DNA of 64,000 nt from Lophium mytilinum (taxonomy: Eukaryota), in contig MU004195.1 of assembly GCA_010093605.1 (NCBI GenBank), positions 1,503,566-1,567,565 on the forward strand, read 5' to 3'. A program made the position numbers and the translations under genes. Under the pieces are notes generated by a model that did not search any database, was not told the DNA's origin, and saw only the letters and a list, made by a program, of their open reading frames with translations. This document shows, piece by piece, positions 42,284 to 64,000 of this stretch. How positions within the stretch are numbered: position 1 is the first letter of the stretch; each line of letters begins with the position of its first letter.

Positions 42284-43387
42284 TCAACGCCCCTCTGCCA
42301 CCCACTCCTCGCTAAACGCATAATCCACATACCCGACAGGCGACCCTGCCGCATAAAACGTGCTCCTATCATACGCACCAAGCTCCAACCCCCGCCTAAT
42401 CCTAAACACCAAATCCGGATTCGCAATAAAGCGCCGGCCAAACAACACCAAAATCTCCTTATCCGGGTACGTCACATCAACGAGCTCCCTCGCCTCCTCC
42501 GACGTATACCCGCCCGCGACCAGCAGCGGGCCGTCCCAGAGCTTATACGCAAACTCAAGCCGCTCGTGGCCCGCCTCAGCGTCCTCAGCGCCGGAGATCC
42601 GCGACTCAACGAGATGGAGATACGCGATGCCAGCGCGGCGCGCTTTCACGATGATATCTGTGAACTGCGGGATCGGATCCGCCATCCGCATGCCCTGGAA
42701 CGTGCTCCACGGACTCAAGCGGAATCCCACGCGCGTTGGGCCGATGGCGGCAACGACGGCCGTGAGCACTTCGTCGAGCAGGCGGGACCGGTTCGCCACG
42801 CTCCCCCCATACGCATCGTCGCGGGTGTTGCTGACGTCCTGGAGGAACTGGTCGAGGAGGTAGCCGTTTGCGCCGTGGATCTCCACGCCGTCGAAGCCGG
42901 CGCGGATGGCGTTTTGCGCCGCGGCTACGAAGTCCTGCACGGTTTGCTGGATCTCGGAGAGGGTCATGGCATGGGGCACCGCGGCGCCTGGGTCGATTGG
43001 GATGGCGCTGGGGGCGATGATGGGGAAGCCGTCTTTTGCGGCGGTTGCGGCGTCGGCGGCGCGGCCCATGCCGAAGAGCTGGCAGAAGATGAAGCAGCCT
43101 TTGCTGTGGACGGCGGAGGTGATGGGTTTCCAGGCTGCGACTTGGTCGTCGCGCCAGAGGCCCGGGGCGTTGGAGAAGCCGCCGCAGTGGGCGGCTGATA
43201 TGGTGGTTCCCTCGGTGAGGATTAGTATGCCGGGCTCAGAGGCCCGTTGGGTGTAGTATTCCTTCATTAGGGGCGTTGGTACTCGATTGTCAGTTGCTCG
43301 TAGGCGAGTCATTGGAGCCATTCCGATACGATGCTGAACTTCCACGTTCCCGATCTTTAGCGGCTTAAAAAGACGTGATTTAGGCAT
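42284..43387 (-). CDS. Old yellow enzyme (FMN-dependent ene-reductase), intronless
   Basis: LFKPLKIG, MAPMTRLRA, AIRAGFDGVEIHGANGYLLDQFL, NTRDDAYGGSVANRSR, FGRRFIANPDL, YDRSTFY. Confidence 0.95.
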   Translation of the reverse strand: MPKSRLFKPLKIGNVEVQHRIGMAPMTRLRATDNRVPTPLMKEYYTQRASEPGILILTEGTTISAAHCGGFSNAPGLWRDDQVAAWKPITSAVHSKGCFIFCQLFGMGRAADAATAAKDGFPIIAPSAIPIDPGAAVPHAMTLSEIQQTVQDFVAAAQNAIRAGFDGVEIHGANGYLLDQFLQDVSNTRDDAYGGSVANRSRLLDEVLTAVVAAIGPTRVGFRLSPWSTFQGMRMADPIPQFTDIIVKARRAGIAYLHLVESRISGAEDAEAGHERLEFAYKLWDGPLLVAGGYTSEEARELVDVTYPDKEILVLFGRRFIANPDLVFRIRRGLELGAYDRSTFYAAGSPVGYVDYAFSEEWVAEGR

Positions 43388-43570
43388 GGTTGAGGAGTTA
43401 ATGGGGGCTCGTTCTCGAGTATGGCAAGTGAATGGAGGTATTGATACTTGAACATCGAGAATATAGAAGTAGTTATACTCGTCGTTTGATAGAAGCGCTA
43501 CCGCAACTGTCGGATGAGTGCGAAGTGGTTCTAAGAAGAGTTCTAACCAATTCGGGCAGAGAGATAGTTC

Positions 43571-43632
43571 CCGAAAGGGAACAGAGATGGCTCCGAAAAG
43601 GGCTTAGAGGTAGCCTAAAAGGGAACAGAGAT
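43571..43632. repeat. 15-bp direct repeat AAAGGGAACAGAGAT x2 with CCGAAA(A)GGG x2 upstream of the OYE gene
   Basis: Copies at 43574-43588 and 43618-43632; CCGAAA at 43571 and 43593. Confidence 0.75.
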
Positions 43633-44049
43633 ACTTCCATTTAAAGAAAGTGGAGACTGTGCTTAAACTTTCCAAGTGTGGTCCTGCATGTCTGGCCAAT
43701 CAATACCCAGATCGCCCGCTAATTATGCGCTAAGATCCTTGCGTCATGAGTGCAGTAAGCGGGCGATTACAAATGGGAAGACTAAACAGGTCAATACGCC
43801 AAGATTCACAAATAATGGGTTCTACCAACTTACCGCTGTAGACGAAGAAGGCATTTTGGACGTGCTACGTGTGATACAATGGGGCGAATGTTGAATGATT
43901 ATACCATTTGCTTTTACAAAGCAAAGGAAGAATTAGTCTCACACCACATGAACTTACCATCACTACCAAGGTAGACTATGGCTGTGGTTGGCCTACACGA
44001 GTATGAAGGGTTCCGAGACAGGAGACTTCCGGCCTGGCTGAGATAAAGT

Positions 44050-45758
44050 CTAGCCGGAAGTTTCTTCCCAGAACGCCTTAACCTGCGACATGAATGCGCT
44101 GTCTGACCAGATGAACTGCTTTAGGATTGCAAGCAATTCCGGCCATGATGTATACAAGCCTTGGAGCCTAGTGCTGCGGTTCGAATGCAACAGTACCACA
44201 TAGTCCGATCGTATAGTTCCGGTGGGGGCAAACGCTCCGCCGATGTGCAGGAGCCAAGCGAGCAAATCAGGTCGGTCGTCCCATAAGAGATCGTAGTTCG
44301 CTTGTTGTAATTTACAGAGAAGTTGTAGCGAAAGGTGGGACTATGCCATTCAGAGTCAGCGCTACCGATAAGGGACTGAGCGGCTTACGGGAATGGTTGA
44401 AGCGCGCCAAAGTTTGCAACGCAGCATTGTTGAGCATAAATATGCCGCTAGATGGCAGCATTCTGAGATGGATGAGCGATTCGGTAAGCTCACTAGCCGC
44501 GACTGAATGGATGCTTGGTGGTTGTCAACACGTGCCATCGATATCACATCCTCTGTACCGAAAAAAGTAGAGTCTCGGATACATTGCAACGCAGAGATGT
44601 CTTTGAGCACCTCAACAAACTCGTCACTCAGTAGATAGGACTGGCTTTGGAATCCAGGCGGCAGGATATAGAAGTTTGGCGAGGATTTGTCTCTGTGCCA
44701 CAGAAGTGCAGAAAAGGTTGTGTGATCCACAACTCGACTCGACCCTGTCAATACTGAGGCATTTAAGTCTGACCTGTTGACGAATGTAAGAATGAGCGGC
44801 CAACAAAGTCTTCATTGTCTCTCACCAGAAGATGGCACGTTTGATGCCGTCACTCAAATATACACCCTTTCTTCGGCACACGTCAAGAAGCTGCTGTATT
44901 GCTCCCATGTGAAGTTGGACTTGACGCGGCATCCCAAGCCGAGCCTATAACATAAAACAGTCAGCTATTCGTGCTGCATGCGGGCCAAAATTATGAACAT
45001 CAAAGGAGGAGGATTGCAAACCTCTACACCAGCGAGTAGCAGAATAGCCCCTAGTGTCGATTCGGAAGTAGCTCTATCCGGAGAACTCATCCTTTGACGA
45101 ATGGAACTCAAGGCCTCATTCTGGTACCCGAGATACTGCCTGTCAATGCTACTTGTAGTGACAGCAAAGGCAAATGTGAGCATGAAGGCACTTAGAAGAG
45201 CGTGATCATCTCGCCCCGTCCGAAGAACCGAGCGAAAGTTCTGGAGCACAAGCTCATCCGAAAGGCTGAAGACAGGTTCCGCAGTCTGCTGGGCCTTGTC
45301 TAAAGCATCCCATGTGAGCCTGTGCCGGGTATTTCTGAGTGTTGTGAAGATCTTACGCTGACTGTGCAATGCTTGTAGTCGCGGCGATTCTGCAGCAAGC
45401 ATCTGGAACGGGTCCGGCGCATCTGCGGAAAGGGAGAGTGGTGCTGCAACAAGAGTTTGGCGTCGTTTTCTTTCGCTCACGGGCCGACTAAGATTGTTTT
45501 CAAAAGACACTGCAAAGAAATTATGACCTGACTGTTGCTGAAGCTTTCGTTTCTTCTCGAGGCCCCGCGTGACAGCATGCGATCGGGCTATGCGCCTCGC
45601 TTTACGGTCATTGGTGTCGTTTAGATTTTTGATGGAAATGAAATGATATTGGCCACCTTGGAAAATGGAATTAGACACGAAATCATATTGCCTTGAAGTT
45701 TTAGCCTACCTATACTAAGTTTGTTAGGCTTCTCGGAAGGATGAGATATTAAGACCAT
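44050..45758 (-). CDS. Fungal transcription-factor-like protein lacking a Zn cluster (basic RxxxRSHA N-terminus, DPF motif), multi-exon
   Basis: ATG 45758; HFISIKN..RKARRIARSHAVTRG, PDPF, YQNEALSSIRQRM, STLGAILLLAGVE, ISECCHLAAYL, LLAWLLHIGGAFAP, ILKQFIWS; several GT-AG introns. Confidence 0.7.
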
Positions 45759-46248: not shown

Positions 46249-47840
46249 ATGGATACGAATCGCGATCTGAATGAAATCGAGCTGGAGAATCCGGCCCAGC
46301 CAACATTCGAGGCCGCAGACCATCACATCGACCATCCGTTCCTTATTTCGCCAATTGCTCCTTCTCGTGAGGCACTCCTCCTCATAACCGTATGCTCGGC
46401 CCAGGCGCTTGTCCAAGCCTGTCTTGCCCAGGCCATTCTCCCTGATAGCATCATTGCACGGAGTTTCTCTGTCAGCGACACAGATGGCACCTGGGGCCCT
46501 GCGGCCTATGGCCTCACATCAGGGACATTCATGCTTCCCGCAGGCCGTGTGGGGGACATGTTTGGACACCGTCGCTGTTTCATTGTCGCTTGGGTCTGGC
46601 TTGCTGTCTCGTCGCTGGTCACGGGTCTAAGCGTGTACTCTCGTTCTTTCGTCTTCTACTCCGTGTGCCGGGGACTCCAGGGCATTGCAGCTGCTCTGCT
46701 CGTTCCCAACGCTCTGGCCATTTTGGGAACGGTATACAAGGAAGGGCCGCGGAAGAATCTCGTCTTCTCGTATGCACTTGCTGAAAACTTCCACCTAACC
46801 TACGAGATTGCTGATGTCGTCTCAGATTATACGCTGCTGGCGCGCCCATCGGTTTTACCATCGGTGCTGTCTTCTCTGGCCTGATCGCACAGCTGTCATG
46901 GTGGCCGTGGATGTTCTACTGTACGGCTATTGCATCGCTTCTCTTCGCTTTGGTATCCGCCATTGCGATCCCCAAGTTACCCGGGGAATTCTACCAAGCT
47001 CAACAACAGGACCCTAGTGCTGGCAAACATTGGCGCAAGGACTTCGACTGGCTTGGATGCTTCACAGGTGTCTCTGGCCTCGTTCTTTTCAACGTCGCCT
47101 GGAACCGAGCTCCTGCTGTTGGCTGGCAAGCCGCAGAGGTGATTGCGCTACTCGTTGTTGGTCTCGCTCTGTTCGTCGCATACCTCTTCGTTGAAGGCAG
47201 AGTGAAACAGCCTCTGGTCCCTATACATCGAATTTCCAAGGACGCAAGCTTCGTGCTTGTTATCATGGCTCTAGGCTGGTCCAGCTTCGGCGTCCTTATC
47301 TACTACGCCCTCAACTTCATCACCCGACTCCGTGAGCAGAGCATCCTAAGCGCAGCCGCCCAGTGCCTTCCGGTCCCTTTCGCAGGCGCCGCCGCTTCAT
47401 ATCTCACCAGCTTGCTCCTCAGCCGAGGGGTTCCGGCAAGTGACGTGCTGGCATTCTCCCTCGTTTGGTTCCTTGTCGGAAATATTATCTTCGCTACGAT
47501 GCCTGTGCACCAACTATATTGGAAGCAGGCGTTCTGGATGTTCGCCGTGGCGCCCTTCGGGATGGATATGAGCTTTCCTTCGGCGACGCTGATCATGAGC
47601 AAGCTCGTGCCACCGGATCAGCAGGGCATTGCTGCTTCTCTGATTGCGACGGTGGTGTACTACTCTCAGTCGATTGGGCTGGGAATTGCTGGAACCGTTG
47701 AGACATCTGTTGCCGGTACTAGCCCTCTGAGAGGGTACAGGGGTGCTTTCTACACTGGCATTGGGCTGAGTGGCATTGGACTGTTAGTAGCACTCTGGCC
47801 AGTTTTTGATTTACGGCATAAGCGACGAAGCTCTCTTTAG
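46249..47840 (+). CDS. MFS drug:H+ antiporter (DHA2/Atr1-like, about 14 TM); intron ~46770-46825
   Basis: AAYGLTSGTFMLPAGRVGDMFGHRR, RGLQGIAAALLVPNALAILG, FGMDMSFPSATLIMS, QQGIAASLIATVVYYSQSIGLGIAGTVE. Confidence 0.92.
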
Positions 47841-48990
47841 CTGTCCTTGATTATGTAAAAACTTTCGAAGCGAGGGTATGCCGATAATTTCAGAGGTAGA
47901 GGCGGCGGTCGCAGTGCTGTACCACAGTAGTATGGAGGGAGATACATTATCGACGCTGCTCTGTCGTCAGAATAGAAATCGCTAGCACCTCCCTTCGGAA
48001 CACCTCCGCGATTGACTAAGCCTAGGCTGACTGCTAGCAAGGGCTATTAATCATTTGCACGTGGCTAGCCGGGGAAGATCGCACGTACAGTATTTTCTAG
48101 GGTATCTCCCCTGCTCGCCTTACGCAAATCCTAACTCCTCTCTTCTCGACCTCGCTTAAATCACTCCGGCGGAACATCTTCACGTCGACTTCCAGATGGG
48201 ATCTACTTTATCAGCTTCGAAACTGACTCGAGACTTCCTTACCACCGTGAGGATATCCAATGAATCTCGCGATTGTCACGCCTTCAACTTTCTCTACATC
48301 CTCAACGCCCTCTGATGTGTCCTCAAGCATACTGATATGACTCGTGACATCGCAGCTCTCTTGGATTCGGAGCATTCACAAGGATCTTAAACCTTAATCC
48401 GCCACTGCATCACGCTTCTTTGGAGAAAATGAGGTCTGAATTCCTCGAGAGTCCACTCGGTCCTTGACTATCGTACCTGGATAGCTGGAGGCGTCGGATT
48501 GAAGGTAGGCTCGTCCGTGGTCATCAACTTTTTTACTCAATGCTTCTCCTTGACTTTGGGTGCCGTGTTGCAGATCTTCTACCCTACAAGGGCTTATTGC
48601 CTACCCTAAGCGGCCACAAAGTTTATTTTCTATGCAAGACACGGCGTCCGAGTGGCAATCGGCTCCTTATCAGGTCCATACCCTGCAAGAAAGTGGTCTG
48701 TGGTACTCTGAAGACATCTTCTCAGACCTTCCCACCCCTGAGATCCCCGCTTACATTCCTCCGACCCCAGGATTTCCTTCAGTGCTAGTGCGCTTTTGTT
48801 GTCACGGTTACAGGGGTACTGCATCTGTTACCGTGATCAGTCGCAAGCAAAGAAGCATATGCCTGATCTTGCGTACTCGCTGCGGTACCCTTTGTATGTA
48901 TGCGCTCTTATACTCCGTGGGAGGCCCTATCGCCCATCTTGGCTTCATCACTGTACCAACTCCCGATGAACTATCCGAGTATCAGGCAGT

Positions 48991-50627
48991 ATGGAGACTC
49001 CTACAGCCGCTTCAAATGATCCTCATACAAAAGTCGCATTCATTCTTGGGTTCTTGATTACGTTGACGACCTTGATGCTGATGTTTTTCGTTTTGCGGAT
49101 CTACGCCAGGCTCTCGATTATTGGGTACTTTGGGATTGAAGACTGGCTTGTAGCTGGTGCCGTGGTAAGTAACTTTACGTTCATCTGGTGGGAGCTGATA
49201 CACTGCCGCACTCATGCTGAATGTTTTAGCTCGGTATCTTGGTTGAGACCATCGATGGATGCGTGTCTACAAAATACGGTGCGGGTTACCATATTCAAGA
49301 TTTCAAGCCAGAATGGACAGTGCCCTACGCAAAAGTAAGTGGCATGTCAAGTTTTCCGAACACTTTCGCCCCTGTTCATCTTAGGCGATGAGAGAATCTG
49401 ACATGCTATAGACAAGTTTTATATCGGGAGCCGTCTTCCCCATTTGCGTCGCCTTCCCCAAACTATCTCTTTGCATAACGTACCTCCGAATCTTCCCTTC
49501 GAAGGGAAACCGGATCTTCTGCTATACTGCAATGATATACCTTGTTTGCTGGCTAATTAGCATTACTCTAGTTACGTTATTTGCTTGCAGGTAAGCACCT
49601 GCTTTCCGGATTAGGCCTCCGCAACACACACAATATCTAACAGACAGGCAACAGCCCAATAGCAGCATCGTGGAATCCCACTACCCCCCACGCCTCCTGC
49701 ATAACCTCCCGCAAATTCTACCTAGCCTCGGGCGCTCTCAACAGCTTAAGTGACTTCCTCGTCTTCCTCTGGCCAGCTCGGGCACTCTGGAAGATCCAAC
49801 TCCCCATAAAGCAGCGACTGGGGCTAATCACTGTGTTCGCGAGCGGATGCATGTGAGTTCCCCCTTAACCCTGAATCTCATTTCATCTTTAGCACTAATT
49901 AAATTCACCAGCGTCTGCGTAACAGCCGTGATCCGCCTCATCTACCTCGAGAAAGTCTTCACAGCGCCCGACTTTGCCTGTCCGTCTCCTTCTCCCTCTC
50001 CTCTTACCTTCCTCTTCCCCTTTCCGTCCCTACCCCCTTCCCCCAAACCCCCTACCCACACCCCTCTTACTCATCCAAACCGCAGACAACGGCGCCATAA
50101 TCTGGGCCACCACCTCCGTCGAACTCAACATCGGCCTCATTTGCAGCTGTCTGCACGCCGTCAAACCGCTGCTCAGCGCCTGGTTCCCGCGCTCCTTCGG
50201 CTCCTCGCGCAATCGCCATAACTCCGACTACCCCAATAACAAGCCGCGGAATTACGGCGTCATTAGTGATCGCTCGATTGCGTTTAAGTCGGTGGGCAGC
50301 GATGCTGCTATGGGGATTGAGCGCCCGAAAGCGACGGCGAAGAATCCTTTTCACAGTCGGACGAGGTCGAGCAGCTCGAGGGTGCCGGCGAAGGAGGAGT
50401 ATGGGGCTTGGGCGGAGGGTGGGGACGGGAGGGGGCTGCGGCCTTTGCATGGGATAACGTATACGCAGAGCGTGACGGTTGATACTCGGTTAGCAACTGC
50501 GACGGACGACATGGATGTTGAAAGGGCAGGGAGGAAAAGCGGCGATGAGGGGATAGGACTGCAGAGGGAAGTGAAGGACACAGATAGCCAGGAATGGATT
50601 ATGACCGATCAGGGGAGGCGAGACTGA
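48991..50627 (+). CDS. PTH11/SAT4-like rhodopsin-domain integral membrane protein without CFEM, multi-exon
   Basis: FFVLRIYARL..FGIEDWL, PKLSLCITYLRIF, LWKIQLPIKQRLGL, AVIRLIYL, VELNIGLICSCLHAVKPL; polar cytoplasmic tail. Confidence 0.85.
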
Positions 50628-50729
50628 AGCCCTAAAGTTTACAACTTATCATGACAATAATACCCACAACAAGGAGAAATCTAAACCTCTGAAAATGCTG
50701 TTCAAAGCGAAGCCTTCCCCTTATACATC

Positions 50730-53700
50730 TTACTCAAGCCCATCCGGAACCAACTTCGACAATCCCGCAATCTTCATCGCCAACGCCGCGATACTCGCAC
50801 CACTAAGCACATCAAACAAACTGACATCCGCCTTTACCTCCCGCATAATCCACGTCCGCGTCTCCACCGCCATCAGCGAATCCACCCCATACGAATGCAG
50901 CGGCTTCTCCACATCGATATTCTCCGCCGCCGTCTGCAGCCCCTTCGCCAGCCGCGCCGCCAGCGCCGCACTGATCGCCCTCCCGGCCTCCTGAACCGAA
51001 GTCGCCTGAGCAAGCACCACCTGCAAAGAATCCCCCTCCGGGCCGGCATCCCCATCTCCCTCTCCGCCCATAACATCTCGCAGCCCCGTCTTCCTCAGCA
51101 GCGCGAACCGCGGATCGTCGTAGTAAAACGGCATCTCCAACCCACCCCGCTTCAGCATCCCACCCGTCGGCAACCCCGTAACCAACTGCGTCGGCATCCC
51201 ACTCCTTCCAAACCCCCCCTTCATCGCCGCCGTGACGATCGCATGGAACTCGCCCTCATCCAGCCCCACCGCCTCCGACCTCCTTAGATTCGTGCCCCCG
51301 CCCCGCTCCGCGATCAGCCCAATCCCCAGCATCAGCCCGAGATCGATACTGACGGCCGCGAGGCCGCGCTGGCGGCGGTAGTGCGCGAGCGCGTCTTGGA
51401 ACGTGTTGCCGGCGGCGTAGTTGGCTTGGCTGCGGTTGCCGACAACGCCCGAGATGGAGGACAGCATGATGAAGAAGTCGAGATCTGGGGGCAGGTGCGT
51501 GTGCAGGTTCCAGGAGCCTTGGATTTTGGGTCCTACGGCGCCGCGCCAGAGGGCGTGCGTCATGTTGTCGTAGATGGAGTCGTTGAGGACGGCGGCGCTT
51601 TGGATGGCGCCGCGGATCGGGGGCATGTGCTGGGAGCATTGGGCGATGGCGGCCTGGACGGCGGCTGAGTCGGAGACGTCGCAGGCGTAGATGCGGGAGG
51701 TGGCGCCGAGGGAGGTGAGTTCGGTCGTCATGGATTGGGCGTTGGGGGAGTTGGGGCCAGAGCGGGAGAGGAAGACGAGGTGGCGGGCGCCGTTGGAGAT
51801 GAGGAGCCTCGCGAGGCTGCGGCCGAGGCCACCGAGACCGCCGGCTAAGATGTAGGTGGCGTTTGGATCCAGAGAGAGTGGATTCAGGGTACCGGGGGAG
51901 ATTGGAATCCGGTCCTGCTGGCTGAAGGAGAGGATTGCGCTGCTTGTGTGTTCCTGGCTAGCTAAAGAGGCGAAGGCATCAACGACTTGATCAGCAGAGA
52001 ACACTGACGGGGGCCTAATCGGCTTAATATCATGTTTAGCCAGGAATGTAGATAGCCCTTGAAGTATGTCGGACATCCGTGACGGGGTTTCTCGGACGAT
52101 GAGATCCATATCGATGGTCGAGAAAGAAGCACCCCCCCGCGAAGGTAGCGCGGTTACAGAAGAGTCAGTCGAAGCGGCTGCGTCTTGAATATTAACGAGA
52201 ATCCCAAATGAGGATATGCTGTCCCAGAAACGTCGCCAAGTCTCTCCAGTTTTCGACGTCGTGTTATTGAGGATCAAATCGCATCCTCGGCCATGGAACA
52301 GTGTGGCGATAGCAGCGGCCAACTCTTGATCCCCGTCATAGAGGATATGGTCTCGTGAGACACCAGATCTCTCTATAACAGAGCTTTGTTCGTCGGTTTC
52401 CACCGTAGCAAATATTATTGCTCCGTATGCCTGTGCCAATTTGACAGCAACCTGGCCGAGCGGACTAGCTGCAGCTCGGATGAGAACGGATTGACCTGGT
52501 TGCAGACGCCCAGTCTGGATGAGACCGAGATAAGCAGCCCCGTATGTAAGCGGCCACGAAGCGGCCTCCTCGAACGTGACTTTTTTAGGAATATGCTGGC
52601 AGAGACACTCGCTGGTTTTGAAGACCGTTCGGTAGGACCCAATGCCTGCGGCACAAACGCGATCGCCCGTTTTGAGGTTCGAGCAGCCTTTTCCTACCGA
52701 TTCCACTATACCGCTAAACTCTTTAACAGACATCGCGTCCTTGTCTCTGTAATATTATGTTAGTTATGTTTGTTCAATAGGAGCGCACCTATCTTACTTT
52801 ATAGCAACGGCTTTAACTTCAACAGCCACTTCGTTAGCAGCAAGCTCAGATGACGCGTTGGTATCAGTGGTAAAGAAGAACGTATCCGGTTGGTCCAGGC
52901 TCCCATGATTGAGCTCCAAGCCAGTTTTAGTTTCTCCCATGGCCATATACTCAGGCGAACCTGCTGTTTGGTCACTCAAGATCATCCGACTCATACCCTC
53001 ATCCGGGACCCATCGATTGATACAGAGGTGGCCATCCATCTCCACGAATTCCCGATCACCATTCGGGACCGTGGCTATTTTAGCGATGGCCTTTGCAAGA
53101 GCATCCGGCGATCGATCGGTCTTGTTCTCGAGGCGCAGGTAGCGAATGTCCAGGTTCAAGTTCTCGTTCTTCAACACCCTCAGGTACCCTAGGGATGCAT
53201 CCATAACAGGATCCTCTCCTATGGATACCCACAGCAGCTGGGGGTTCTGAAGAACAACGCTTTTTAGTATGTCGTAATCTTCCGCAGATATGTCGGCGCG
53301 CAGCGGTTCTTCTAATTGGAGTAAAGATACCAGCCGCTTTCCTTTCATGTCCGCGAGCGATGACGTCCATTCGACAAACTGTGCCTCCAATCCCTTGCTG
53401 GTAAGGCCGTCGACAACCGCATCACAGATTTGAGCTGCTCTTGCGGTTTTACTTTTTGCCTGGAGAACGTAGATAGGGTCACCATCGCGTTGTTCAGTAG
53501 TTGGATTCGTAGCGAGAAATAGAGCATTCTGCGTTGCCTCCTTGGAGGAATCCTCGGTATATAGGCATAAGGGGTGGAGCTTGAGCTTAGTTTCTGTAGC
53601 GTTCCAAGACCTAAATTGTAATCAGTACGAATCTTGCATTCGCCATAAGCGAGGTTCCACTTACGGGAGTACGCCTGCCGACGTTGCGTTCAAAACCAGA

Positions 53701-56700
53701 AGATATCCCGTCTCACTTAGCAGTCCCTGCACATTGCGAAATAGTGCTTCCCTATTTGCATCGTCGAGGGAGACGGCAGACAGGATAATAAAATTAAACG
53801 TGGTTTCTTGAGGCTCAAACCCTTGGAGATCGAAATTAGGACTCAGGGTCTTGAAAGTCATCAGAGGTTTCCAGTCCTGAAGCACTACCTCGGCAGCTTC
53901 CAGCTTCGAATTGTCGGCGTCGGCTAGCGTGTAACTTGAGAAACGCGGTGTGGCAGTGGCTGATTTCTGGAGCATGGACAGGACCGATAGTGGCAAGTCA
54001 GTTTCAGGAGCGCCGATTTGAAGAATTGATAAGTCGGGATTCTTATGTGCTGCAAGATTGATAATCTGTTGTAGTAAGTATAGAGTCATAGTTCCCGCTA
54101 ATACGAGCCAGATCGGATATTTTACCTCGCAAATCTGATTGTGGCGGTCCGGAATCTTCGTTGGATGTGTCCTGTCGGAGAACACCTCCGGAATCCGCGA
54201 CCCTGTCCCTTTCACAGCAGAGTTTGCGGTGCTGCTCGCAGTAATATACTCTTCTAGAGCAGTATGATCTAGAAGCGTTATGTCCGGCTTCCAAAGAAGC
54301 GTGCCGAACGGGGCCTTCGCAGCCCCGTCCGACAAACTCGATAAATTAGTTCTTGGGAGCTCTTTGCATCGTATGCCCTTGATTTGCACTTTTGGCTCAG
54401 CCCAGCTGGCATCCGACATGTACACATCCGCTACCACCTCACGTAGGCCGGCTCGTGTCGTTCGGCAGAACCCATTGAACTGAGCCCCCGCGCCAGAAGG
54501 CAGATCCATAGAAAGTGTAAGGCTGTCGAAAGAGATCGGAACGGCGGCATCTTGGAACTCCAGCTCTTCGGCACCCAGCCCAACAAACAGCGAATGGAAG
54601 ATAATGTCAAGAGTGGTAGGATGAATGAGATGCCCGCTCTCGATGTTTGATGGCATCACACTCTTCGTATCCGGAATGGCAATAGTGCAGCAGGCACGAC
54701 CGTGACCAGAGGAGATGTCCGTCAGGCCTTGGAAACAAGGTCCATACGCCAGGCCTGCCTCTTCAGTTCTCTTGTAGAAATCTTTCGGGTCGATCTTTCG
54801 TGTGCATAGTCGCTTGGAGTCTTCATACTCGCTCTTTATCGCTGCATGAAGCAAACTTTTGCCGGTGGTCCAGGGGCCGCTCTCATCAAATTTGTATTTG
54901 ATCTTGATCGATCCGAACGCATTCTCTTCAACATCTTGATCCTCGTGGCAGCTAGACACAGAGAAATCCCACCAGGCTCCCGAAGGCCCGCTCGATCCGG
55001 TACGTTGGGGCTGCAGCTGTAAGAAGCATTCGACACCCATCTGGTCGTCCGGTACAACCATAGCTTTAGTGATATGAACATCTCTTAGCTGAATGCTTTC
55101 TATCTGCTTCTCTTTGTCGGCAATCTGCTGTATCGCTTCCAGAGGCATCGCAAGAATGCCTGCCGCTGGGTACAATATGCTCGACTGGACAATGTGGTCC
55201 CGAATCCAGGGATTCTCAGTAGATCTGAGAAAATGTCTCCATCTTGGCTCTAGTTTGCTTGATGTAGGAGTCAGTGCGCCCACTAGGTCATGGCGGCCAT
55301 GCTCTCTGAAGCGGTAATTTTTGCTTAACCGGGACTCGGACCAGTATTTCAGAGAGTGATTCCACGGGTAGGATGGCAGGTCGAGGAGTGCTTTAGGTTG
55401 AGTTTGCAAGTCGTTGACATCTGAGATGGATATTGGGACACCGCGGATATACAGTGCTCCTGCCGCCATGATAGCCGCCTTGGTAGCAGCTTCACCTCGC
55501 ATGAGCACGGACTCATATGGGATATTCTTGATCTCTTGATGTTGCATAATCTGCCTTAAAGGACCCTTCAATGCAGCGTGCGGCCCGACCTCGAGCAAAA
55601 TGTCGAACGTCACCTCTGTCGTTCGAGCTGCTCGACGTCTGCGTTGCGTGGTATCTTTAGATAAGGCTTGAACAGCGTCGGAGAAGAGCACTGGAGAAAC
55701 AAGGTTTCGAACCCAGTAGTCAGGCCCGAGATCGGCATAGGTCGCAAGGGTACCGGTGACGCTGGAGGCCATTCTCATGTTCCCTTCCGATGGTAGTGAT
55801 CTGGTGGATATATCCGATATTCGCTCGCGGTATTTGTCTGCAATTGAAAGCATATGGTGGCTATGATATGCGTTCTCGACCTTCAGTTTGCGGCAGAAGA
55901 TGCCATCGAAGTTGAGGTTCTGAAGAAGCTCGTCGATTGCAGCCTCATCTCCAGAGATAGTGACGGAGGTTGGGGAATTGACGCAAGCCACAACAAGCTT
56001 GCCCTTCGTGATTGTTGCGAAATACTTCTCAGCATCGCTGGAAGATAATCCGACGGCCATCATGGCACCTTTTAATTCAGGTGCTTCTGTAGCCAACTCC
56101 GAGCACAGCTTTCCTCGCCAGTACGAGATCTTCCAGGCATCCTCTCGAGATATCGCACCGAAGCTATAAGCAGCTCCGATCTCACCGCTGGAATGTCCAA
56201 CGACTCCCACAGGTTTGATATTCCAGGATGTAAGAAGGTCAACAAGGGCAACCTGAAGAATGGTGCAAACGGGCTGACTGAATCTTGCAAGTTGAATCTT
56301 GGTAGCTCCAGCATCTCGTTCAAGCTCCTCAGTGGCAGACCATTCGCACCCCAATGTGCCCTTCAGATACCGGTCGGCAGCTAGAACACTGGCCCTAAAC
56401 ACTGAGTACTGCAAAAGCTCTACGCCCATCCTAGCCCATTGTGCGCCCTGGCCAGTAAAGACAAAGGCGATGCGAGGCGTAGTAGATGATCGTGTGGACG
56501 CGAATTTCGACACCGAAAGGGATTTCTTTAGGCCCTCGAGAGTTGAAGCAACCACGCATGCTTTCCAATTGAACTGAGAACGTCGTTTGCTCAATGTAAA
56601 CGACAAGCTGTCCATATAAGCAGTTTCTTCGGCTGCTTCCTTTAGTGTGGCCTTGGAATTAACTGATTCTAGATGTTTCAGGTATTGCGTTCTCATCCGG

Positions 56701-58313
56701 TCCAAAGCTGCGTCATCCCGAGCACTAAATATGAAGAGGCGCTGTTTGTGGACCGCTTTCCCATGTGTTTGAATTAATGCGTTGCGAATATGATCAACAC
56801 GCACGCCCAGCTCAGTAAGATAATGGCCGGCATCATCAAGGATCGCGTGCGCATTCGTACCGCCATAGCCAAAGGAGTTTACGCTCACACGTCGAAGGCC
56901 ATTGGAGGGCCATGGAATAGCCGACGTTGGAACGCGGATTTTCCAGTTGTCGAACGGTATTCGTCGGTTCGGTTTGTCGAAGTGGATATTGGGTAAGATG
57001 ATGCCAGTTTCCAACATCAAGACACACTTGATGAAACCAGCCAGCCCTGCTGCACCTTCTAGGTGACCGATCTAGCGAGAGGACATATTTAGCTTCAGCA
57101 CTTGTGTTTTACGCACAATATTGGATACTCACGTTCGATTTCACTGAGCCAACCAGAAGTTCACTACCAGGAGGGCGCCCTTTGGCGAGAGTTTTGGCAA
57201 CGGCGGAGAGTTCCAACGGATCTCCCACTGCAGTTCCTGTGCCATGGGCCTCAAAATAACTCGTTTGTGAAAAGTCGAGGCCCGCAGAACGATAGGTCGA
57301 TTGAATCAAACTAGCCTGCGCATCGCTATTCGGCAGCGTGATACCTGTTGTGTGACCATCCTGATTTATTCCTTTCAGGCTTGTCAGCTCACCCTGTGCA
57401 GCAAAACAGTTGCGATACATACCTGTCCCACGGATAACGGCGCGTATAGAATCACCGTCGCGCAGAGCATCAGCTAGAGGCTTCAATATGACGGTTGCGA
57501 TTCCTTCACCTCGACCATAGCCGCTGACCCCTTCCGCAAAAGATCTGGATAGCCCTTCCTTTGAAAGCATATGAAGATTGGACAGAAACATGGCTAACTC
57601 TGGACTGAGGATTAAATTCGCACCGCTCACCACGGCCACCTTGGACTCTCCTGCACGAAGTCCTTGGCAGGCTAGATGCAGACCGACGAGACTGGAAGAA
57701 CAAGCTGTGTCTAATGTCATGCTCGGGCCTCGAAAGTCGTAAAACCACGATACTCGATTTGACAGGAGTGAGAAACCAGTGCCGGTGCCCGCATACATGG
57801 GCGAGGTCTCAGCATCTCGCATGAGCATTTCATGATAATCCCGAGTAAAGCAGCCAACGTAGCAGCTGGTGTCGCTTCCTGTGAGGTTCTCAATGGGCAA
57901 GCCGGCGTTTTCGAGTGCCTCGTAAGTGACTTCAAGTAGCATCCTTGCCGTCGGGTCCATGGCCTTTGCCTCATGGGCTGTGACGTTGAAGAAAGGGGCA
58001 TCGAAGGAGGAGACATCTTGGTCTAGAAAGTGGCCGCCTGTGCAACTCAGAGTGTTGAGTTTATCGCCGCCTCGGTGGTGGAAAGCTTTGGCATTGTAGC
58101 GGCTTTGAGGCACTTCAGAGTATGCAGCTAACGAAGGGACGCGTTAATTCCTAGCATTGACAGGAGTCTGTTAGAGGTAGAAGGCGTACATTTCCGCTCA
58201 TATAACAAGTCCCAGAACTTGGTGGAATTTGAAGCACCGCCGGGGAAGCGGCAAGCGAGGCCCACGACGGCGATATCAGCTACCTCAACGTCGCCTTTCG
58301 AGGATGACGCCAT
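50730..58313 (-). CDS. Highly reducing iterative type I polyketide synthase, KS-AT-DH-(psiMT)-(ER degenerate)-KR-ACP
   Basis: KS DTACSSS, HGTGT, GHLEGAAG; AT GHSSG, AYHSH; DH WIRDHIVQSSILYP and HPTTLD; KR GGLGGLG, LND, YAAGN; ACP YGVDSL; exons join in phase across short introns near 58128, 57374, 57071, 54066, 53611 and 52748. Confidence 0.95.
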
Positions 58314-58371
58314 GGCAGTTTAGATTATGAATGGGCTAAAAACTTGAACGGAGGATACGGAAACAATCATG

Positions 58372-58388
58372 GAGAGAGAGAGAGAGAG
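58372..58388. repeat. (GA)n tract, reading (CT)n on the PKS strand, in the PKS 5' region
   Basis: Read directly; CT-rich boxes are common near fungal transcription starts. Confidence 0.7.
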
Positions 58389-59348: not shown

Positions 59349-60226
59349 ATGCGTTTCCTCTGCTTGCATGGCCGGGGAACTAACTCTGATATCTTCGAAA
59401 GCCAGCTAGGTAAGAGCGTGAAGCTATTAGGATAGATGGACCAGATGCTAATTTCCTCATCCCAGCACCACTATTCTCACGCGTCTCCCCTCACCATACT
59501 TTTGATTTCGTAGATGCTCCCTTCGACTGCGTGGCCGCTCACGGAATATCCCAACTCTACCAGCCGCCCTATCTGACCTGGCATACTCAGTATGAGCCTC
59601 AGCACGTCGAGCCAGTGCATGACTTCCTTCGCACCGTAATCGAAGAAGACGGTCCCTACGATGGTGTAATTGGCTTCTCGCAAGGAGCAGCACTAGCTGC
59701 AAGTTTCTTGCTTTGCCATGAACACTACGCACAGATTCGCGATCCAGGCCGTCGTCACAAGCCTCCGTTCAAGGTAGCCATATTCATCAACAGCGTCATG
59801 ACGTTCTCGCCGTCCGAGCACATTGGCAGCAACATCAGCCAGCATATAAAGAGCCAAGAAGAGAAGCACATGGCATTCATTGAGGGCGTAGATTCCTTGG
59901 GAGCGGAAGACTTTACACCTACGGAGACATATACGACAATAGATGGCGACTCGATTTACGGTTTTCCCAAGGACACTTTTGCGCCGCGCATTTCAATCCC
60001 GACGCTGCATCTTTATGGGACAGAGGATCAGTTCTTGGAACATTCGGAGGAACTAGTCGGCTTGTGTCGAGGAGACAGAACAGAAGTGCTGCCTGTTAGG
60101 GGTGGGCACGAGCTGCCTCGCACCAACCCAGCTTGGGACAAATTCGCCGCACTTTTCGAAATGGTGGCCATGACAGCTGCCCTCATGGATCCAAGTAGCA
60201 GAAGGGGGTCTGCCACGACATCATAA
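59349..60226 (+). CDS. FSH1/LovG-type serine hydrolase (candidate trans-acting polyketide thioesterase); intron 59410-59465
   Basis: MRFLCLHGRGTNSDIFESQL, GPYDGVIGFSQGAALA (GxSxG), IPTLHLYGTEDQF, GGHELP; transcribed divergently from the PKS. Confidence 0.92.
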
Positions 60227-60862
60227 CGTGTCATACGAGGATAGAGTTGCGCTTCATAGATTTCATGGTTACTCACCCTCTATACCAGTCATAATGTCAT
60301 GTCTTATTCAGGTTTATATGCCAAAAACACAGACAACACAAGTATGATCTTGACCATGGAAGAGCACCAGAGGAATGTACCTTTCCGTTCAACCTCAGTA
60401 CCAAGGTTCTCTCACATCTACCGCCTAGCCCACTTCGGCATCACGCATGGAACTCGTATTATCGACCACTTTTCAGCTGCACTCGGCGCACTAAACTAGT
60501 CAAGAGAAGGCGCGTGGCAGAGGGATCTTTTGGGCAGAAGCGACTTGCCATGTCAGCCAGACAGGGTTCCGACGTGAAGGACGCATGCGCTAGTAACACC
60601 CAATTGCTTCACCCTGTCAGCTGTATGCACGCTCGGCAAGTCCGGGGTGTAATAGTGGGGCGGGATGGACCACTGCTCGAAGGGTTACCAACATAGTTCG
60701 AGGACCTCTTACTTCGCTGGTAAATAAAACGTCTTACTCTTCTGTTCCATACTTTTAACGGCCTCTCTGATTGAAAATCTGCCTTGATTTCGACGTCTAC
60801 TATTCTTTTATTTTTCTACCGATTTTCTAAGTATCGACGCTTGCACTGAGTACTTGAGCAGG

Positions 60863-63800
60863 ATGGTTTCTACTGCCACTCCGGTGGATAACAACCGACT
60901 TATCCCAAATGTGATTGACCTTCGTGCTCAGAGGAATCCACAAGACATATTCGCAAAAGTGCCGACTTCGACTACTAGCTATGGATCTGGATTTCGATCG
61001 GTCACCATTGTTGAACTTTCCAATGCCATCAACAGAGTAGCATGGCTTCTCCAAGAGCATTTGGGAAAAGGCCAGGACCATGAAGCTTTGGCATACATTG
61101 GACCTACCGATCTGCGCTATTCCATCGTTGTCATTGCAGCTATAAAAGTTGGCTACAAGGTAAGGGACACTGCCTAATGTATCAACTGCACTCTTACTGA
61201 CTGCTTCGTTCATATACGTTTCTGCCATCTCCCAGAAACAGCAAAGCCGCCCACATCTCCCTTCTATCAAGACTTGCATGCAAGATTCTAGTTACCACCC
61301 ATCCGGAACCTCCTTGTGTTCCTATGATTTTAGAAGACTACAGCATGCGAAAGCTTCAAATTCCTTCCCTCGATGAACTGCTTTCCAATCAGGATACTCC
61401 GCATTATCCCTATGAAAAGACATTTGAAGAGGCAAAATATGACCCAGCATTCATTTTGCATACATCAGGATCCACAGGTTGTCGAGTCATACCCCATCAT
61501 GCGTCCTTTGCTAACTGCGTATAGGAATACCCAAGCCCCTGACGTATAACCACTCCTTCATCACACGTATTGCAAACGTTACGTCTCTTCCTCCGCCGGA
61601 AGGCTTTCAGAGCTTGGATAAATATTTTCGTTCGGGAAGCTTCTTTATGACCCTGCCCGGATTCCATGTAAGCAATCCAAGGGCGTATCAATTCGCTTCT
61701 ATATTACATAACAGCCGTAAACTCGTACTCAAAAGCCCTTTAGGTTGCTGGCATAGGCTTCTCGCTCATTGTGCCTGCCTTCAACAGTTCTGTCCCCGTG
61801 TACCCTCTTCCAGGGCCTCCCCCAACAACCGCCGCCTTCATTGACGCCATAAATAACGCAGTGATCGACTGGGCTTTCTTGCCACCAGTGGTAATCGATG
61901 AGCTAGGCAAGGACCCGGAATTGCTAGAAGCAGTAGCCAGCAAGCTGAAGTAACTTTACTACACCGGGGGTAGTGTCCCAAGATCGTCAGGCGATGCTGT
62001 TGCAGCTCGAATGCCACTTTATCAAGTAATGGTATCGAGCGAATGTGCCACATTCCCTCTCGTGAAACGGGGGCACGACGAAGATGGTCACGACTGGAAC
62101 TACATTCAGGTTCACCCCTCAGTCCAAGCGGAATTCCGGCACCGCTTCGAGGATTTACACGAGCTTATCGTAGTGAGGACCTCGGAGAACGAGTCCTACC
62201 AACCGGTATTCCTCCACTTTCCCGATCTGAAGGAGTACGAGACGCGAGATCTTTTCACGCCGCATCCAACGAAACCAGGGCTTTGGACGCATCGAAGCCG
62301 GGTCGACGACGTCATCGTGTTCTTAAATGGAGAGAAGACAAACCCTGTCTCTTTCGAGCACGAGGTCGCCAAACATCCCGAAGTTGGAGCCGCGTTAGTG
62401 GCTGGCCAGCAACGTTTCGAAGCCTCGCTTTTAGTTGAGCTCGTCGATAACAGTGCCGCCACACCCAAAGACCGCCTTGAGATCGTTGACCGAATATGGC
62501 CTAACGTACAAAAAGCGAACAGTCAATGTCCTGCTCATGCCAAAGTCTCCAAGTCGAAGATTATATTGGTGGATCCGGAAATGCCAATGCTCCGCGCCGG
62601 GAAATGGACTGTTCAGCGGCAAGCCACCTTAGATTTGTACTCAAAGATATTGGATGAGGTCTATGCTGAGGATGACCTGGACGTTTTATGGATCCCAGCA
62701 GAAGACATTGTTAGTGAGTCCTTCGTTGCGGACACAGTGCGGGAAGCGGTTAGGAGCGTGACTGAGTGGGCGGAATTCAATGACGATGACGAGTTTTTCT
62801 CCCTAGGAATGGATTCTCTGCAAGTCTTCAAACTAAGACGCCAGCTCAAGGCTAAGTTGCCGCAAACTATCAGCATAGCAACTATATATGGAAACCCTTC
62901 AATCACGCTGCTTGCGAAGGAAATCTGGAAATCGGCATCTCACACCCAAGCATCAGAATCTGAAATTCAACGAGCCATGCCAGACGAAGCTGCCGCGATT
63001 ACCGCAACCATCCAAGAATACGTCAACCAAATAGACGCAATCGCAACGCCCCCCCAGACGGACTCACATCCGATAGCAAAACCGTCACCAGCATCCGAAG
63101 TCATACTGCTCACAGGATCAACGGGCACGCTGGGCTCTTTCATACTTCACGACCTCCTTGCCCAGAAAACCAGTGCTCACATCTACTGCCTAAACCGAGC
63201 CCCAAACTCCTCACAACTCCAAACAACCCGAAACCAGTCCCACCAACTCCCCACCAACTTCCCCCTCAACCGCGTCACCTTCCTAACCGCCGACCTCTCC
63301 AAACCCTCCTTCGGGCTCTCAGAACCCCTCTACACCACCCTCCTAACAACAACCACCCGCATCATCCACAACGCCTGGCCCGTCGACTTCAACCGCACCC
63401 TCCCCTCCTTCCACCCCAGCCTCTCCACCGTCGTCGCCCTCATCGCCTTCGCCGCCCGCTCCCCCAAATCCCCGACTCTGTTCTTCATGTCCTCCATCAG
63501 CGCCACCATCAACTACAGCGCGCCCCTGATCCCCGAAGCCGTCATCACAGACCTCGCCTGCACCGCGCCAATGGGCTACGGGCAGAGCAAATACGTCGCC
63601 GAACGCCTCCTCGACCACGCGGCCCGCACCCTCGGCGTCGACGCCACGGCCGTCCGTATCGGGCAGATCGCGGGCACGGCGGAGAACCCGCGCGGCTGGA
63701 GCCGGAATGAGTGGCTGCCGAGTTTGGTGCTGAGCTTGCGGTTCGTGAGCGCGCTGCCGGATTCGCTGGGGGCGATGGACGCTGTGGACTGGGTGCCGGT

Positions 63801-64000
63801 TGATAAGCTGGCGGGGGTGCTGAGGGAATTGCTTTTCGGGGCTTATGGTGGAAAAGAGGGTAACGGATTGCGGGTGTTTCATGCCGTCAATCCGGCTGTT
63901 GTTTCGTGGGAAACGCTGCTTCCTACCGTTAAAGAGCTCTTGAGTGAGCACGGAGAGGTGGCGGTGCTGTCGTTCCCTGCTTGGTTGGACCTCCTGAAAT
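60863..64000 (+). pseudogene. NRPS-like carboxylic acid reductase (A-T-R), disrupted as assembled; runs off the right edge
   Basis: A: LAYIGPTDLRY, FLPSPRNS, ILHTSGSTG/IPKP, TRDLF.PHP, RVDDVIVFLNGEKTNP; T: FFSLGMDSL; R: LLTGSTGTLG, IIHNAWPVDF, GYGQSKY. Intron 1 ends CATAT instead of CATAG at 61215; in-frame TAA at 61951-61953. Confidence 0.8.

What the first reader, a model, noticed from the sequence alone, without database searches (positions are those of the whole stretch)
42284..64000. Unrecognised polyketide system: ER/MT-degenerate HR-PKS + trans-hydrolase + carboxylic acid reductase + ene-reductase
Seen: an HR-PKS with no release domain, a divergently transcribed FSH1 hydrolase, an adjacent A-T-R enzyme, plus OYE, MFS exporter, PTH11/SAT4-like protein and regulators. 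Known: LovG-type hydrolases release HR-PKS chains as acids, and fungal A-T-R enzymes reduce acids to aldehydes, mostly characterised on aryl acids from non-reducing PKSs. Inference: an unmethylated polyene or polyol acid is released, reduced to an aliphatic enal and then trimmed or detoxified by the OYE. I do not recognise a characterised cluster with this set, and the right-hand part is not visible.
Basis: partly seen in the sequence, partly recalled or inferred. Interest (0 to 1): 0.8.

Follow-up and report, generated by a model that had tools for sequence, protein, structure and literature searches.

The report
Fungal polyketide cluster with dead reductase
This is a real, transcribed fungal polyketide gene cluster built around a synthase, hydrolase and acid-reductase trio that many ascomycetes share and nobody has characterised, but here the reductase gene is broken.

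Summary
There is a KS-AT-DH-(dead MT)-(dead ER)-KR-ACP highly reducing PKS (50730-58313, minus strand) with no release domain. An FSH1 serine hydrolase is transcribed divergently from it (59349-60226). An A-T-R NRPS-like reductase follows (60863 to beyond 64000). An OYE, an MFS transporter, a Fung_rhodopsin (PTH11/SAT4-like) gene and two regulator-like genes lie to the left.

The PKS, hydrolase and A-T-R genes form a conserved adjacent trio. I found it in Eurotiomycetes, Dothideomycetes, Leotiomycetes and Sordariomycetes, and in 5 environmental fungal contigs. The PKS belongs to a well-supported clade in which all 25 members lack the ER NADPH motif.

No member of this clade is characterised; Preu1 is only a name. 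The same release-then-reduce logic is known from fusaric acid (FUB1/FUB4/FUB8), so the gene set is not unprecedented.

In this genome the A-T-R gene carries two lesions: an in-frame TAA where the orthologue has Tyr, and a lost intron-1 acceptor (AT instead of AG). The TAA also stands in spliced RNA contigs.

Nothing I could test shows that the OYE is conserved with the trio. The unseen right flank probably holds no conserved cluster genes.

Verdict: a new variant of a known kind, of moderate interest.

The parts
40079..42169 (+). Zn2Cys6 transcription factor (open frame; the likely start lies inside it)
   Evidence: Zn_clus 37 bits and Fungal_trans_2 186 bits. The RNA contig record 6 begins 1987 nt before position 42200, so it runs over this gene.
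42284..43387 (-). Old Yellow Enzyme ene-reductase, 367 aa, with the canonical H-x-x-N-x-Y motif (HGANGY)
   Evidence: PF00724, 297 bits. CDS from Met. Best solved relative is 4qnw, chanoclavine-I aldehyde reductase, at 351.6 bits against about 280 for yeast OYE1. Covered by RNA contig.
44050..45758 (-). 473-aa regulator-like protein with no DNA-binding domain; five introns supported by RNA contigs
   Evidence: Joints at 44341-44388, 44772-44823, 44944-45020, 45300-45356 and 45655-45707. Spliced frame. Only a weak Fungal_trans_2 hit: 17.5 bits, below the cutoff of 21.
46249..47840 (+). MFS transporter, 511 aa, one intron at 46770-46825
   Evidence: MFS_1 and TRI12 hits. Intact spliced frame. 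RNA contig piece 46826-47983.
48970..50627 (+). Fung_rhodopsin (PTH11/SAT4-like) membrane protein gene with several exons; gene model not resolved
   Evidence: PF20684 scores 43.1 bits on 49412-49594 and 57.3 bits on 49641-49856, and 15.3 bits on the last exon.
50730..58313 (-). Highly reducing PKS, 2414 aa: KS-AT-DH-(degenerate MT)-(degenerate ER)-KR-ACP, no release domain, six introns
   Evidence: Pfam domains. Active-site motifs. A 7750-nt RNA contig carries six CT..AC joints. The spliced translation is identical to P0121.
59349..60226 (+). FSH1-family serine hydrolase, 273 aa, one intron at 59408-59463, divergent from the PKS
   Evidence: PF03959, 113.6 bits. Catalytic triad invariant in 18 of 18 relatives. 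RNA contig with the spliced intron. Spliced translation identical to P0241.
60863..64000 (+). A-T-R NRPS-like carboxylic acid reductase, a transcribed pseudogene that runs off the window (about 80 more codons according to P0001)
   Evidence: Domains. 82% identical to the intact 1069-aa Mytilinidion orthologue P0002. Introns 61476-61522 and 61668-61743 are spliced in RNA contigs.
61951..61953 (+). In-frame TAA in the adenylation domain, where the orthologue has Tyr (KLK-Y-LYYTGGS)
   Evidence: No differing letter in DNA contigs X1 and X2 or in RNA-like contigs X3.
61160..61215 (+). Intron 1 of the A-T-R gene with a destroyed 3' splice site: AT at 61214-61215 where AG is expected
   Evidence: All 8 intron-bearing homologous loci end this intron in AG at exactly this place. 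Retaining the intron gives a stop at codon 105. The next AG (ending at 61235) shifts the frame and gives a stop at codon 146.
39216..39845 (-). RidA/L-PSP family gene at the left edge; whether it belongs to the cluster is unknown
   Evidence: PF01042, 33.3 bits.

Best explanation
The locus is a genuine, transcribed fungal secondary-metabolite cluster. Its conserved core is a three-gene cassette: an HR-PKS with dead ER and MT domains and no release domain, a divergently transcribed FSH1 serine hydrolase, and an A-T-R NRPS-like reductase.

Inferred mechanism for the cassette as a family: the PKS iteratively builds an unmethylated chain that keeps its double bonds or hydroxyls, because KR and DH are active and ER is not. 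The FSH1 hydrolase cleaves it from the ACP as a free acid. The A-T-R enzyme adenylates that acid, loads it on its own carrier domain and reduces it with NADPH to an aldehyde.

In this particular genome the A-T-R gene is a pseudogene, with a nonsense codon and a lost intron-1 acceptor. Here the pathway most likely stops at the free unsaturated acid, or the cluster is beginning to decay.

The OYE is a canonical enal/enone reductase that sits nearby and is transcribed, but its link to the pathway is unproven.

Shown: gene content, domain states, conserved adjacency, transcription and splicing, and the two lesions. Inferred: the chemistry, the inactivity of the ER, and the roles of the hydrolase and reductase.
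For: Domains and motifs. KS Cys, AT Ser, DH His, the KR GxGxxG and Tyr, and the ACP DSL are intact. The ER GGVG motif is absent in all 25 in-group PKSs and present in 7 of 9 out-group PKSs. MT motif I is present in only 2 of 34.

Tree. On a KS-AT tree of 75 PKSs, the window's PKS sits in a 25-row clade with support 100, and all 25 are ER-degenerate.

Conserved adjacency. Of 23 other clade PKSs that carry a contig length, 16 share that length with an A-T-R hit, 11 share it with an FSH1 hit, and 9 share it with both. Locus tags are consecutive in Exophiala bonariae (LTR84_013032/33/34) and E. spinifera (PV08_09989/90/91). They are adjacent in Polytolypa hystricis (AJ80_01316/17).

Environmental contigs. 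Five of 65 related metagenome loci hold all three genes together (L001, L009, L010, L011, L016). Three short contigs hold A-T-R plus FSH1.

Hydrolase. The catalytic triad is invariant in 18 of 18 relatives.

Precedent. LovG releases the product of ER0 LovB (passages in PMC8374128). Fusaric acid uses FUB1, FUB4 and FUB8, and Fub8 reduces trans-2-hexenoic acid (passages in PMC10967133 and PMC9605436).

Pseudogene. The TAA replaces Tyr. The acceptor is AT where 8 of 8 homologous introns have AG. Every way of reading the gene ends early.

Reads. Neither the DNA contigs nor the RNA-like contigs of a second study show any differing letter. The RNA-like contigs skip 16 introns, all with canonical ends among the 15 printed; the DNA contigs skip none.

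Intact partners. The PKS and FSH1 spliced at the RNA-supported introns equal the database proteins exactly.
Against: - There are no product data for any clade member.
- ER inactivity is inferred from one motif and sub-threshold Pfam scores.
- Equal contig length is only a proxy for co-location on Mb-size contigs. Searches list only their best 120 hits, so misses are not absences.
- Three loci from one organism (L003, L004, L012) have a 52%-identical A-T-R gene with no PKS or FSH1 within 10 kb. The reductase family is therefore not always tied to the trio.
- The A-T-R frame shows no excess missense decay: 4 of 124 invariant columns are changed, against 0-5 in leave-one-out controls. The lesions are recent, or the gene product is still used in some truncated form.
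- The lost-acceptor argument assumes the intron sits where it does in relatives.
- Contigs cannot give expression levels, and the RNA status of X3 is inferred from its spliced joints.
Confidence: 0.6

Rival explanations
1. The acid is released, the adjacent A-T-R enzyme reduces it to an aliphatic enal, and the OYE then reduces or detoxifies the enal.
For: All the genes are present and transcribed in one RNA-like data set. The OYE is canonical, and its best solved relative is an enal reductase of secondary metabolism, EasA 4qnw.
Against: The A-T-R gene has a TAA at codon 304 of the orthologue-guided model and no usable intron-1 acceptor. The TAA is also in the RNA contigs. No co-conservation of the OYE was found: 0 of 65 loci, and 0 of 8 nearest relatives on trio contigs.
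Confidence: 0.08
2. The cassette does not make a polyene. Enoyl reduction is supplied in trans by an unlinked LovC-type enzyme or, unusually, by the OYE, giving a partly saturated chain as with LovB/LovC.
For: LovB is an ER0 PKS that depends on the trans-ER LovC (passages in PMC8374128). The degenerate ER domain is kept at full length across the clade.
Against: No MDR-type trans-ER was found among the 46 frames scanned in the window, nor in the flanks of 4 trio loci (39 frames). OYEs are not known to act on ACP-bound enoyl thioesters (recalled).
Confidence: 0.15
3. The whole cluster is a decaying relic in this strain and makes nothing.
For: Two independent lesions lie in one core gene. Another clade member, P0141 from Rhinocladiella mackenziei, has lost the KS cysteine and the KR tyrosine, so copies of this cassette do decay.
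Against: The PKS (2414 aa) and FSH1 (273 aa) are intact, correctly spliced and transcribed. The MFS and OYE are also intact.
Confidence: 0.15

Closest known systems
Fusaric acid cluster front end (FUB1 PKS, FUB4 serine hydrolase, FUB8 NRPS-like reductase; also FUB6, FUB9, two Zn2Cys6 factors and an MFS)
   Same: The same three enzyme types sit in one cluster, with Zn2Cys6 and MFS genes. Fub8 reduces a PKS-derived enoic acid, trans-2-hexenoic acid, to the enal (passages in PMC10967133 and PMC9605436). Database relatives at about 41% (PKS) and 43% (A-T-R) identity to the window's proteins carry automatic FUB1 and FUB8 names.
   Different: The PKS here belongs to a separate clade with a dead ER. 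No aspartate kinase, homoserine acetyltransferase, PLP enzyme, MDR reductase or FMN oxidase of the FUB type was found in the 46 window frames scanned.
LovB / LovG (lovastatin nonaketide synthase with its FSH1-type esterase)
   Same: An ER0 HR-PKS without a release domain, whose product is released by a discrete esterase encoded in the cluster (passages in PMC8374128).
   Different: LovB has an active MT and needs the trans-ER LovC. No LovC-like gene is seen here. Lovastatin has no A-T-R reduction step.
Preu1 of Preussia isomera (nearest named homologue, P0133, 47% identity over the large exon)
   Same: It lies in the same 25-member ER-degenerate clade.
   Different: It is only a name. The paper expressed Preu3, Preu4 and Preu6, not Preu1, and says the Preu1 cluster resembles no known cluster (passages in PMC9116485).
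Aryl-acid carboxylate reductases paired with non-reducing PKSs (clade VI in PMC9605436: AtCAR, StbB, AscB and others)
   Same: A-T-R architecture and an acid-to-aldehyde reaction.
   Different: Those enzymes reduce orsellinic-type aromatic acids. This one is paired with a reducing PKS. Its adenylation domain has the acyl-CoA-ligase-like LPGFH motif (my reading of the sequence).
EasA, chanoclavine-I aldehyde reductase (PDB 4qnw)
   Same: It is the best solved relative of the OYE, at 351.6 bits. It is an OYE that reduces an enal inside a secondary-metabolite pathway. Tyr196 is kept here, as in canonical OYEs (passage in PMC13107220).
   Different: Ergot alkaloid context. Similarity of this degree is common among fungal OYEs and does not tie this OYE to the PKS.

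Membership tests
Fungal highly reducing iterative PKS | KS Cys-His-His, AT Ser, DH His, KR NADPH motif and Tyr, ACP Ser | tested here: met
   DTACSSS, GHSSGE, DHIVQSSILYP, GGLGGLG, NYAAGN and GVDSL are all present. Pfam domains score above their cutoffs.
Fungal highly reducing iterative PKS | Functional ER (HxAxGGVG NADPH motif) and a functional C-methyltransferase | tested here: not met
   The ER reads LIRAAASPLGQ, and its Pfam hits are below the cutoffs (26.3 against 31.8, 26.2 against 27, 20 against 23.5). There is no methyltransferase hit at E <= 0.01, and motif I reads IGAPETD.
FSH1 / LovG-type trans-acting hydrolase | PF03959 fold with a Ser-Asp-His triad, encoded next to a PKS that lacks a release domain | tested here: met
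   113.6 bits. S92, D208 and H235 are invariant in 18 of 18. Adjacent to the PKS here and in relatives.
FSH1 / LovG-type trans-acting hydrolase | Hydrolyses the acyl-ACP thioester of its partner PKS | not testable with these tools
   Needs an enzyme assay or co-expression.
Carboxylic acid reductase (A-T-R NRPS-like) | Adenylation, carrier and thioester-reductase domains in one open frame | tested here: not met
   The domains are present, and the orthologue P0002 is intact. The window's gene, however, has a TAA at 61951-61953 and no intron-1 acceptor.
Fusaric acid (FUB) cluster | Amino-acid branch genes (aspartate kinase FUB3, homoserine O-acetyltransferase FUB5, PLP enzyme FUB7) and the FMN oxidase FUB9 | tested here: not met
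   None was found among 46 frames of the window scanned against Pfam. The unseen right flank is not covered.
Old Yellow Enzyme | PF00724 TIM barrel with His/Asn substrate-binding residues and the Tyr196 proton donor | tested here: met
   297 bits. The HGANGY motif is in the translation. The top PDB hits are OYEs.

The most novel reading that the evidence does not exclude
The trio of ER-dead PKS, FSH1 hydrolase and A-T-R reductase is a self-sufficient, widely spread three-gene pathway. It gives ascomycetes of at least four classes a free polyunsaturated aldehyde (a polyenal) with no need for tailoring enzymes, since housekeeping genes directly flank the A-T-R side in relatives. This strain would be a natural reductase knockout that makes the acid instead.
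Probability: 0.3. Interest if true: 0.55.

Novelty: new variant of a known kind. Interest (0 to 1): 0.35.

Why it matters
The cassette defines an uncharacterised PKS clade that is well supported on the tree. Its fixed partners are conserved in many genomes, including black yeasts that infect people (Exophiala, Fonsecaea, Madurella) and common Penicillium and Aspergillus species. One expression experiment could therefore assign a product to dozens of orphan clusters. It would also extend the fusaric-acid type 'release, then reduce' logic to polyene chains.

For this genome the practical points are two. The public gene model of the reductase (996 aa) hides two inactivating lesions behind invented introns. 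Cluster-mining software would therefore score the locus as complete when it is not.

Tried and rejected
- Whole genome: none is held for this window.
The PKS-distal side of related clusters, where the OYE would lie, stays unseen.
- Earlier findings of this scan: nothing by place, by words or by sequence.
- Sequencing runs: no RNA holder is listed on record. X3 is labelled 'RNA?' and I treat it as RNA only because its contigs carry spliced joints.
- X3 gives no cover over 48203-50203, the Fung_rhodopsin gene. My depth arithmetic suggests none over most of A-T-R exon 1. I draw no conclusion from either.
- Missense decay of the reductase: 4 of 124 invariant columns are changed, against 0-5 in controls, so there is no excess.
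- OYE co-conservation: representative search plus look-up of 8 nearest relatives. None is from a trio contig, but clustering at 50% hides close orthologues, so this is weak evidence.
- Papers read in passages and found irrelevant: treconorin (PMC10682982), subrubines (PMC13107220; used only for OYE Tyr196) and spirotetramate (PMC12616698).
- The primary fusaric acid enzymology paper was not held under the DOI I recalled. I rely on passages in two secondary sources.
- A characterised member of the ER-dead clade in print: 9 full-text searches found none. Subscription journals are mostly not in the library, and no MIBiG or antiSMASH comparison was available.


Full report
**What is there**

The window is fungal. 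The protein search lists proteins identical to the window's PKS and hydrolase under the name Lophium mytilinum, on a 1,734,399-bp contig. Positions 1-39000 carry housekeeping genes: TRAPPC10, two DEDDh exonucleases, Pcf11, a ubiquitin-like protein, a Myb protein and Mif2.

From about 39 kb to the window's end lie, in order:
- a RidA/L-PSP gene;
- a Zn2Cys6 factor (40079-42169, plus strand);
- an OYE (42284-43387, minus strand);
- a 473-aa regulator-like gene (44050-45758, minus strand);
- an MFS transporter (46249-47840, plus strand);
- a Fung_rhodopsin gene (about 48970-50627, plus strand);
- the PKS (50730-58313, minus strand);
- an FSH1 hydrolase (59349-60226, plus strand);
- an A-T-R reductase (60863 to beyond 64000, plus strand).

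**The PKS**

Pfam finds KS, AT, DH, KR and ACP above their cutoffs. The ER-type hits are all below their cutoffs, and there is no methyltransferase hit.

I aligned 34 PKSs. The KS, AT, DH, KR and ACP catalytic motifs of the window's enzyme are intact. The ER NADPH motif reads LIRAAASPLGQ where functional enzymes have HAAAGGVGQ. None of the 25 closest PKSs (P0121-P0145) has the GGVG motif, while 7 of 9 more distant ones do. MT motif I is intact in only 2 of the 34.

I built a FastTree of the KS-AT part from 75 rows. These were P0121-P0199 minus four proteins shorter than 2200 aa. The window's PKS falls in a 25-row clade with support 100, and all 25 rows are ER-degenerate.

The protein ends about 50 residues after the ACP serine, so it has no release domain.

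**The trio is conserved**

Searches searched with the reductase, the PKS and the hydrolase. I compared the contig lengths they report. Of the 23 other clade PKSs that carry a contig length:
- 16 share it with a reductase hit;
- 11 share it with a hydrolase hit;
- 9 share it with both;
- 5 share it with neither (P0124, P0131, P0138, P0141, P0144).

Searches list only their best 120 hits, so these misses are not absences.

Locus tags prove adjacency in Exophiala bonariae (LTR84_013032 reductase, 013033 hydrolase, 013034 PKS) and in E. spinifera (PV08_09989/90/91). They also do so for Polytolypa hystricis (AJ80_01316/17) and Fonsecaea multimorphosa (Z520_08259/61).

A scan of metagenome contigs with a reductase alignment returned 65 loci. 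By tblastn with 13 window proteins:
- five hold all three genes within a few kb. L001, L010 and L011 have the window's layout; L009 and L016 have a rearranged one;
- three short contigs hold the reductase and hydrolase;
- seven more hold a reductase with a more distant PKS hit and no FSH1 hit;
- none of the 65 has a hit to the window's OYE, MFS, Zn2Cys6, RidA, regulator-like or Fung_rhodopsin frames.

These loci reach only 10 kb either side of the reductase, and the window's OYE lies 17 kb away beyond the PKS. This last test is therefore weak.

Past the reductase, four trio loci run straight into housekeeping or unrelated genes (39 frames scanned): ISN1, PBDC1 and an ABC transporter in L001; La and KH proteins in L010; Ulp1 and TPR proteins in L009; an F-box protein in L016. 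The part of the cluster that the window cuts off is therefore probably small or empty.

**The reductase is broken here**

The intact Mytilinidion orthologue (P0002, 1069 aa, 82% identical) reads ASKLK-Y-LYYTGGS. The window has TAA at that Tyr codon, at 61951-61953.

Exon 1 ends at 61159 (AAG|GTAAGG). The next exon should start at ACG at 61216, but the two bases before it are AT, not AG. In all 8 related loci that have an intron here (L001, L002, L003, L005, L006, L007, L017, L019), the intron ends in AG at exactly this spot. Five other loci have no intron there.

Reading the gene three ways gives a stop each time:
- with the intron removed as in relatives, at codon 304;
- with the intron retained, at codon 105;
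- with the next AG used as acceptor, at codon 146.

The public 996-aa model P0001 avoids both lesions. It jumps from exon 1 to 61390 and cuts out 33 bases around the TAA. Neither jump is among the 15 joints printed for the RNA contigs. The sixteenth, unprinted joint is accounted for below.

At invariant positions of the orthologue alignment, the window's frame differs in 4 of 124 (G332V, G523W, G794T, S902L). Leave-one-out controls give 0-5. There is no wider decay, so the lesions look recent.

**Reads**

Three runs hold the stretch. X1 and X2 are DNA contigs that may be the source of the assembly, so they are not independent. X3 comes from another study.

I laid them on 42200-62199. All three show no differing letter. 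X3's contigs skip 16 short segments; the 15 printed have GT..AG or CT..AC ends, and the DNA contigs skip none. I therefore read X3 as RNA.

X3 gives:
- a 7750-nt PKS contig with six introns;
- a hydrolase contig with its intron;
- reductase introns 2 and 3, both spliced;
- an MFS piece;
- one contig running over the Zn2Cys6, OYE and regulator-like genes.

Spliced at these joints, the PKS and hydrolase translate exactly to P0121 and P0241.

My arithmetic on the depth table supports two further points. The bin holding the TAA has depth 82.2, which equals 93 x 581/657. That is a depth-93 contig covering everything in the bin except the 76-nt intron, so the TAA is in the RNA. The one joint not printed is accounted for by the MFS intron. 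The bin 60876-61542 has depth 48.0, which equals 93 x 344/667. That is 64 nt more than exon 2 plus the start of exon 3, and it fits a contig that runs unspliced through intron 1. This last point is inference, not something the tool displayed.

Contigs say nothing about expression levels.

**How it most likely works**

The hydrolase keeps its Ser-Asp-His triad in 18 of 18 relatives. A cluster esterase, LovG, releases the chain from the ER0, release-domain-less LovB (passages in PMC8374128).

In fusaric acid biosynthesis a PKS (FUB1), a serine hydrolase (FUB4) and an NRPS-like enzyme (FUB8) act together, and Fub8 reduces trans-2-hexenoic acid (passages in PMC10967133 and PMC9605436). Database relatives of the window's PKS and reductase, at about 41-43% identity, carry automatic FUB1 and FUB8 names. 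One of these is the Fusarium graminearum PKS FGSG_10548, which has an FSH1 gene at FGSG_10545.

By this analogy the cassette builds an unmethylated, unsaturated acid, releases it by hydrolysis and reduces it to an aldehyde. With the reductase dead, this strain should stop at the acid.

The OYE has the canonical His/Asn/Tyr motif. Its best solved relative is the enal reductase EasA (4qnw, 351.6 bits against about 280 for yeast OYE1). Its 8 nearest looked-up relatives come from unrelated fungi on other contigs, so nothing ties it to the pathway.

**Comparison with what is known, and novelty**

The nearest named homologue, Preu1 (47%), was never expressed. Its cluster was reported to match nothing known (passages in PMC9116485).

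The locus is not a fusaric acid cluster. The amino-acid branch genes and the FMN oxidase are absent from the 46 frames scanned, and the PKS is in a different, ER-dead clade.

Nine full-text searches found no characterised member of that clade. The library lacks most subscription journals, and I had no MIBiG comparison.

I file it as a new variant of a known kind: the 'HR-PKS, trans-hydrolase, A-T-R reductase' logic. The local twist is that the reductase is a transcribed pseudogene.

Noticed in passing
window 60863-64000 (database protein P0001): The public 996-aa gene model of the reductase bridges both lesions with ad hoc introns: 61160-61389, and 33 bases around the TAA. Neither is among the 15 RNA-contig joints printed. 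It lacks 73 residues relative to the orthologue.
   Followed up: yes
P0141 (Rhinocladiella mackenziei PKS): This clade member has DTGSSSG instead of DTACSSS at the KS active site, and SHAAVN instead of NYAAGN at the KR tyrosine. It also has the third-longest tree branch flagged by the tool. It is probably another decaying copy of the cassette.
   Followed up: partly
L003, L004, L012 (10001-13350): The same 52%-identical reductase gene appears in three metagenome records with no PKS or FSH1 hit within 10 kb either side. The reductase family also exists outside the trio.
   Followed up: no
window 39216-39845 (-): A RidA/L-PSP (enamine/imine deaminase family) gene sits directly left of the Zn2Cys6 factor, at the border between housekeeping genes and the cluster. 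Whether it belongs to the cluster is unknown.
   Followed up: no
window 7260-8600 and 9098-10300 (-): Two neighbouring frames both hit the DEDDh_C exonuclease domain (158 and 126 bits), which suggests a tandem duplication.
   Followed up: no
window 20000-26000: A G+C-rich stretch (0.57-0.62, against about 0.50 elsewhere) holds a run of long plus-strand frames that end in a Myb DNA-binding domain. Most of these frames have no Pfam hit.
   Followed up: no
window 40214-45760 (RNA contig record 6): One 5435-nt RNA contig runs over the plus-strand Zn2Cys6 gene and the minus-strand OYE and regulator-like genes. It includes a spliced 52-nt segment (43782-43833) between the latter two. This suggests overlapping or read-through transcripts.
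   Followed up: no
L001 10001-10350: The homologous intron 1 in L001 and L002 starts with GC rather than GT (caag|gcaagt), so it is a GC-AG intron.
   Followed up: no
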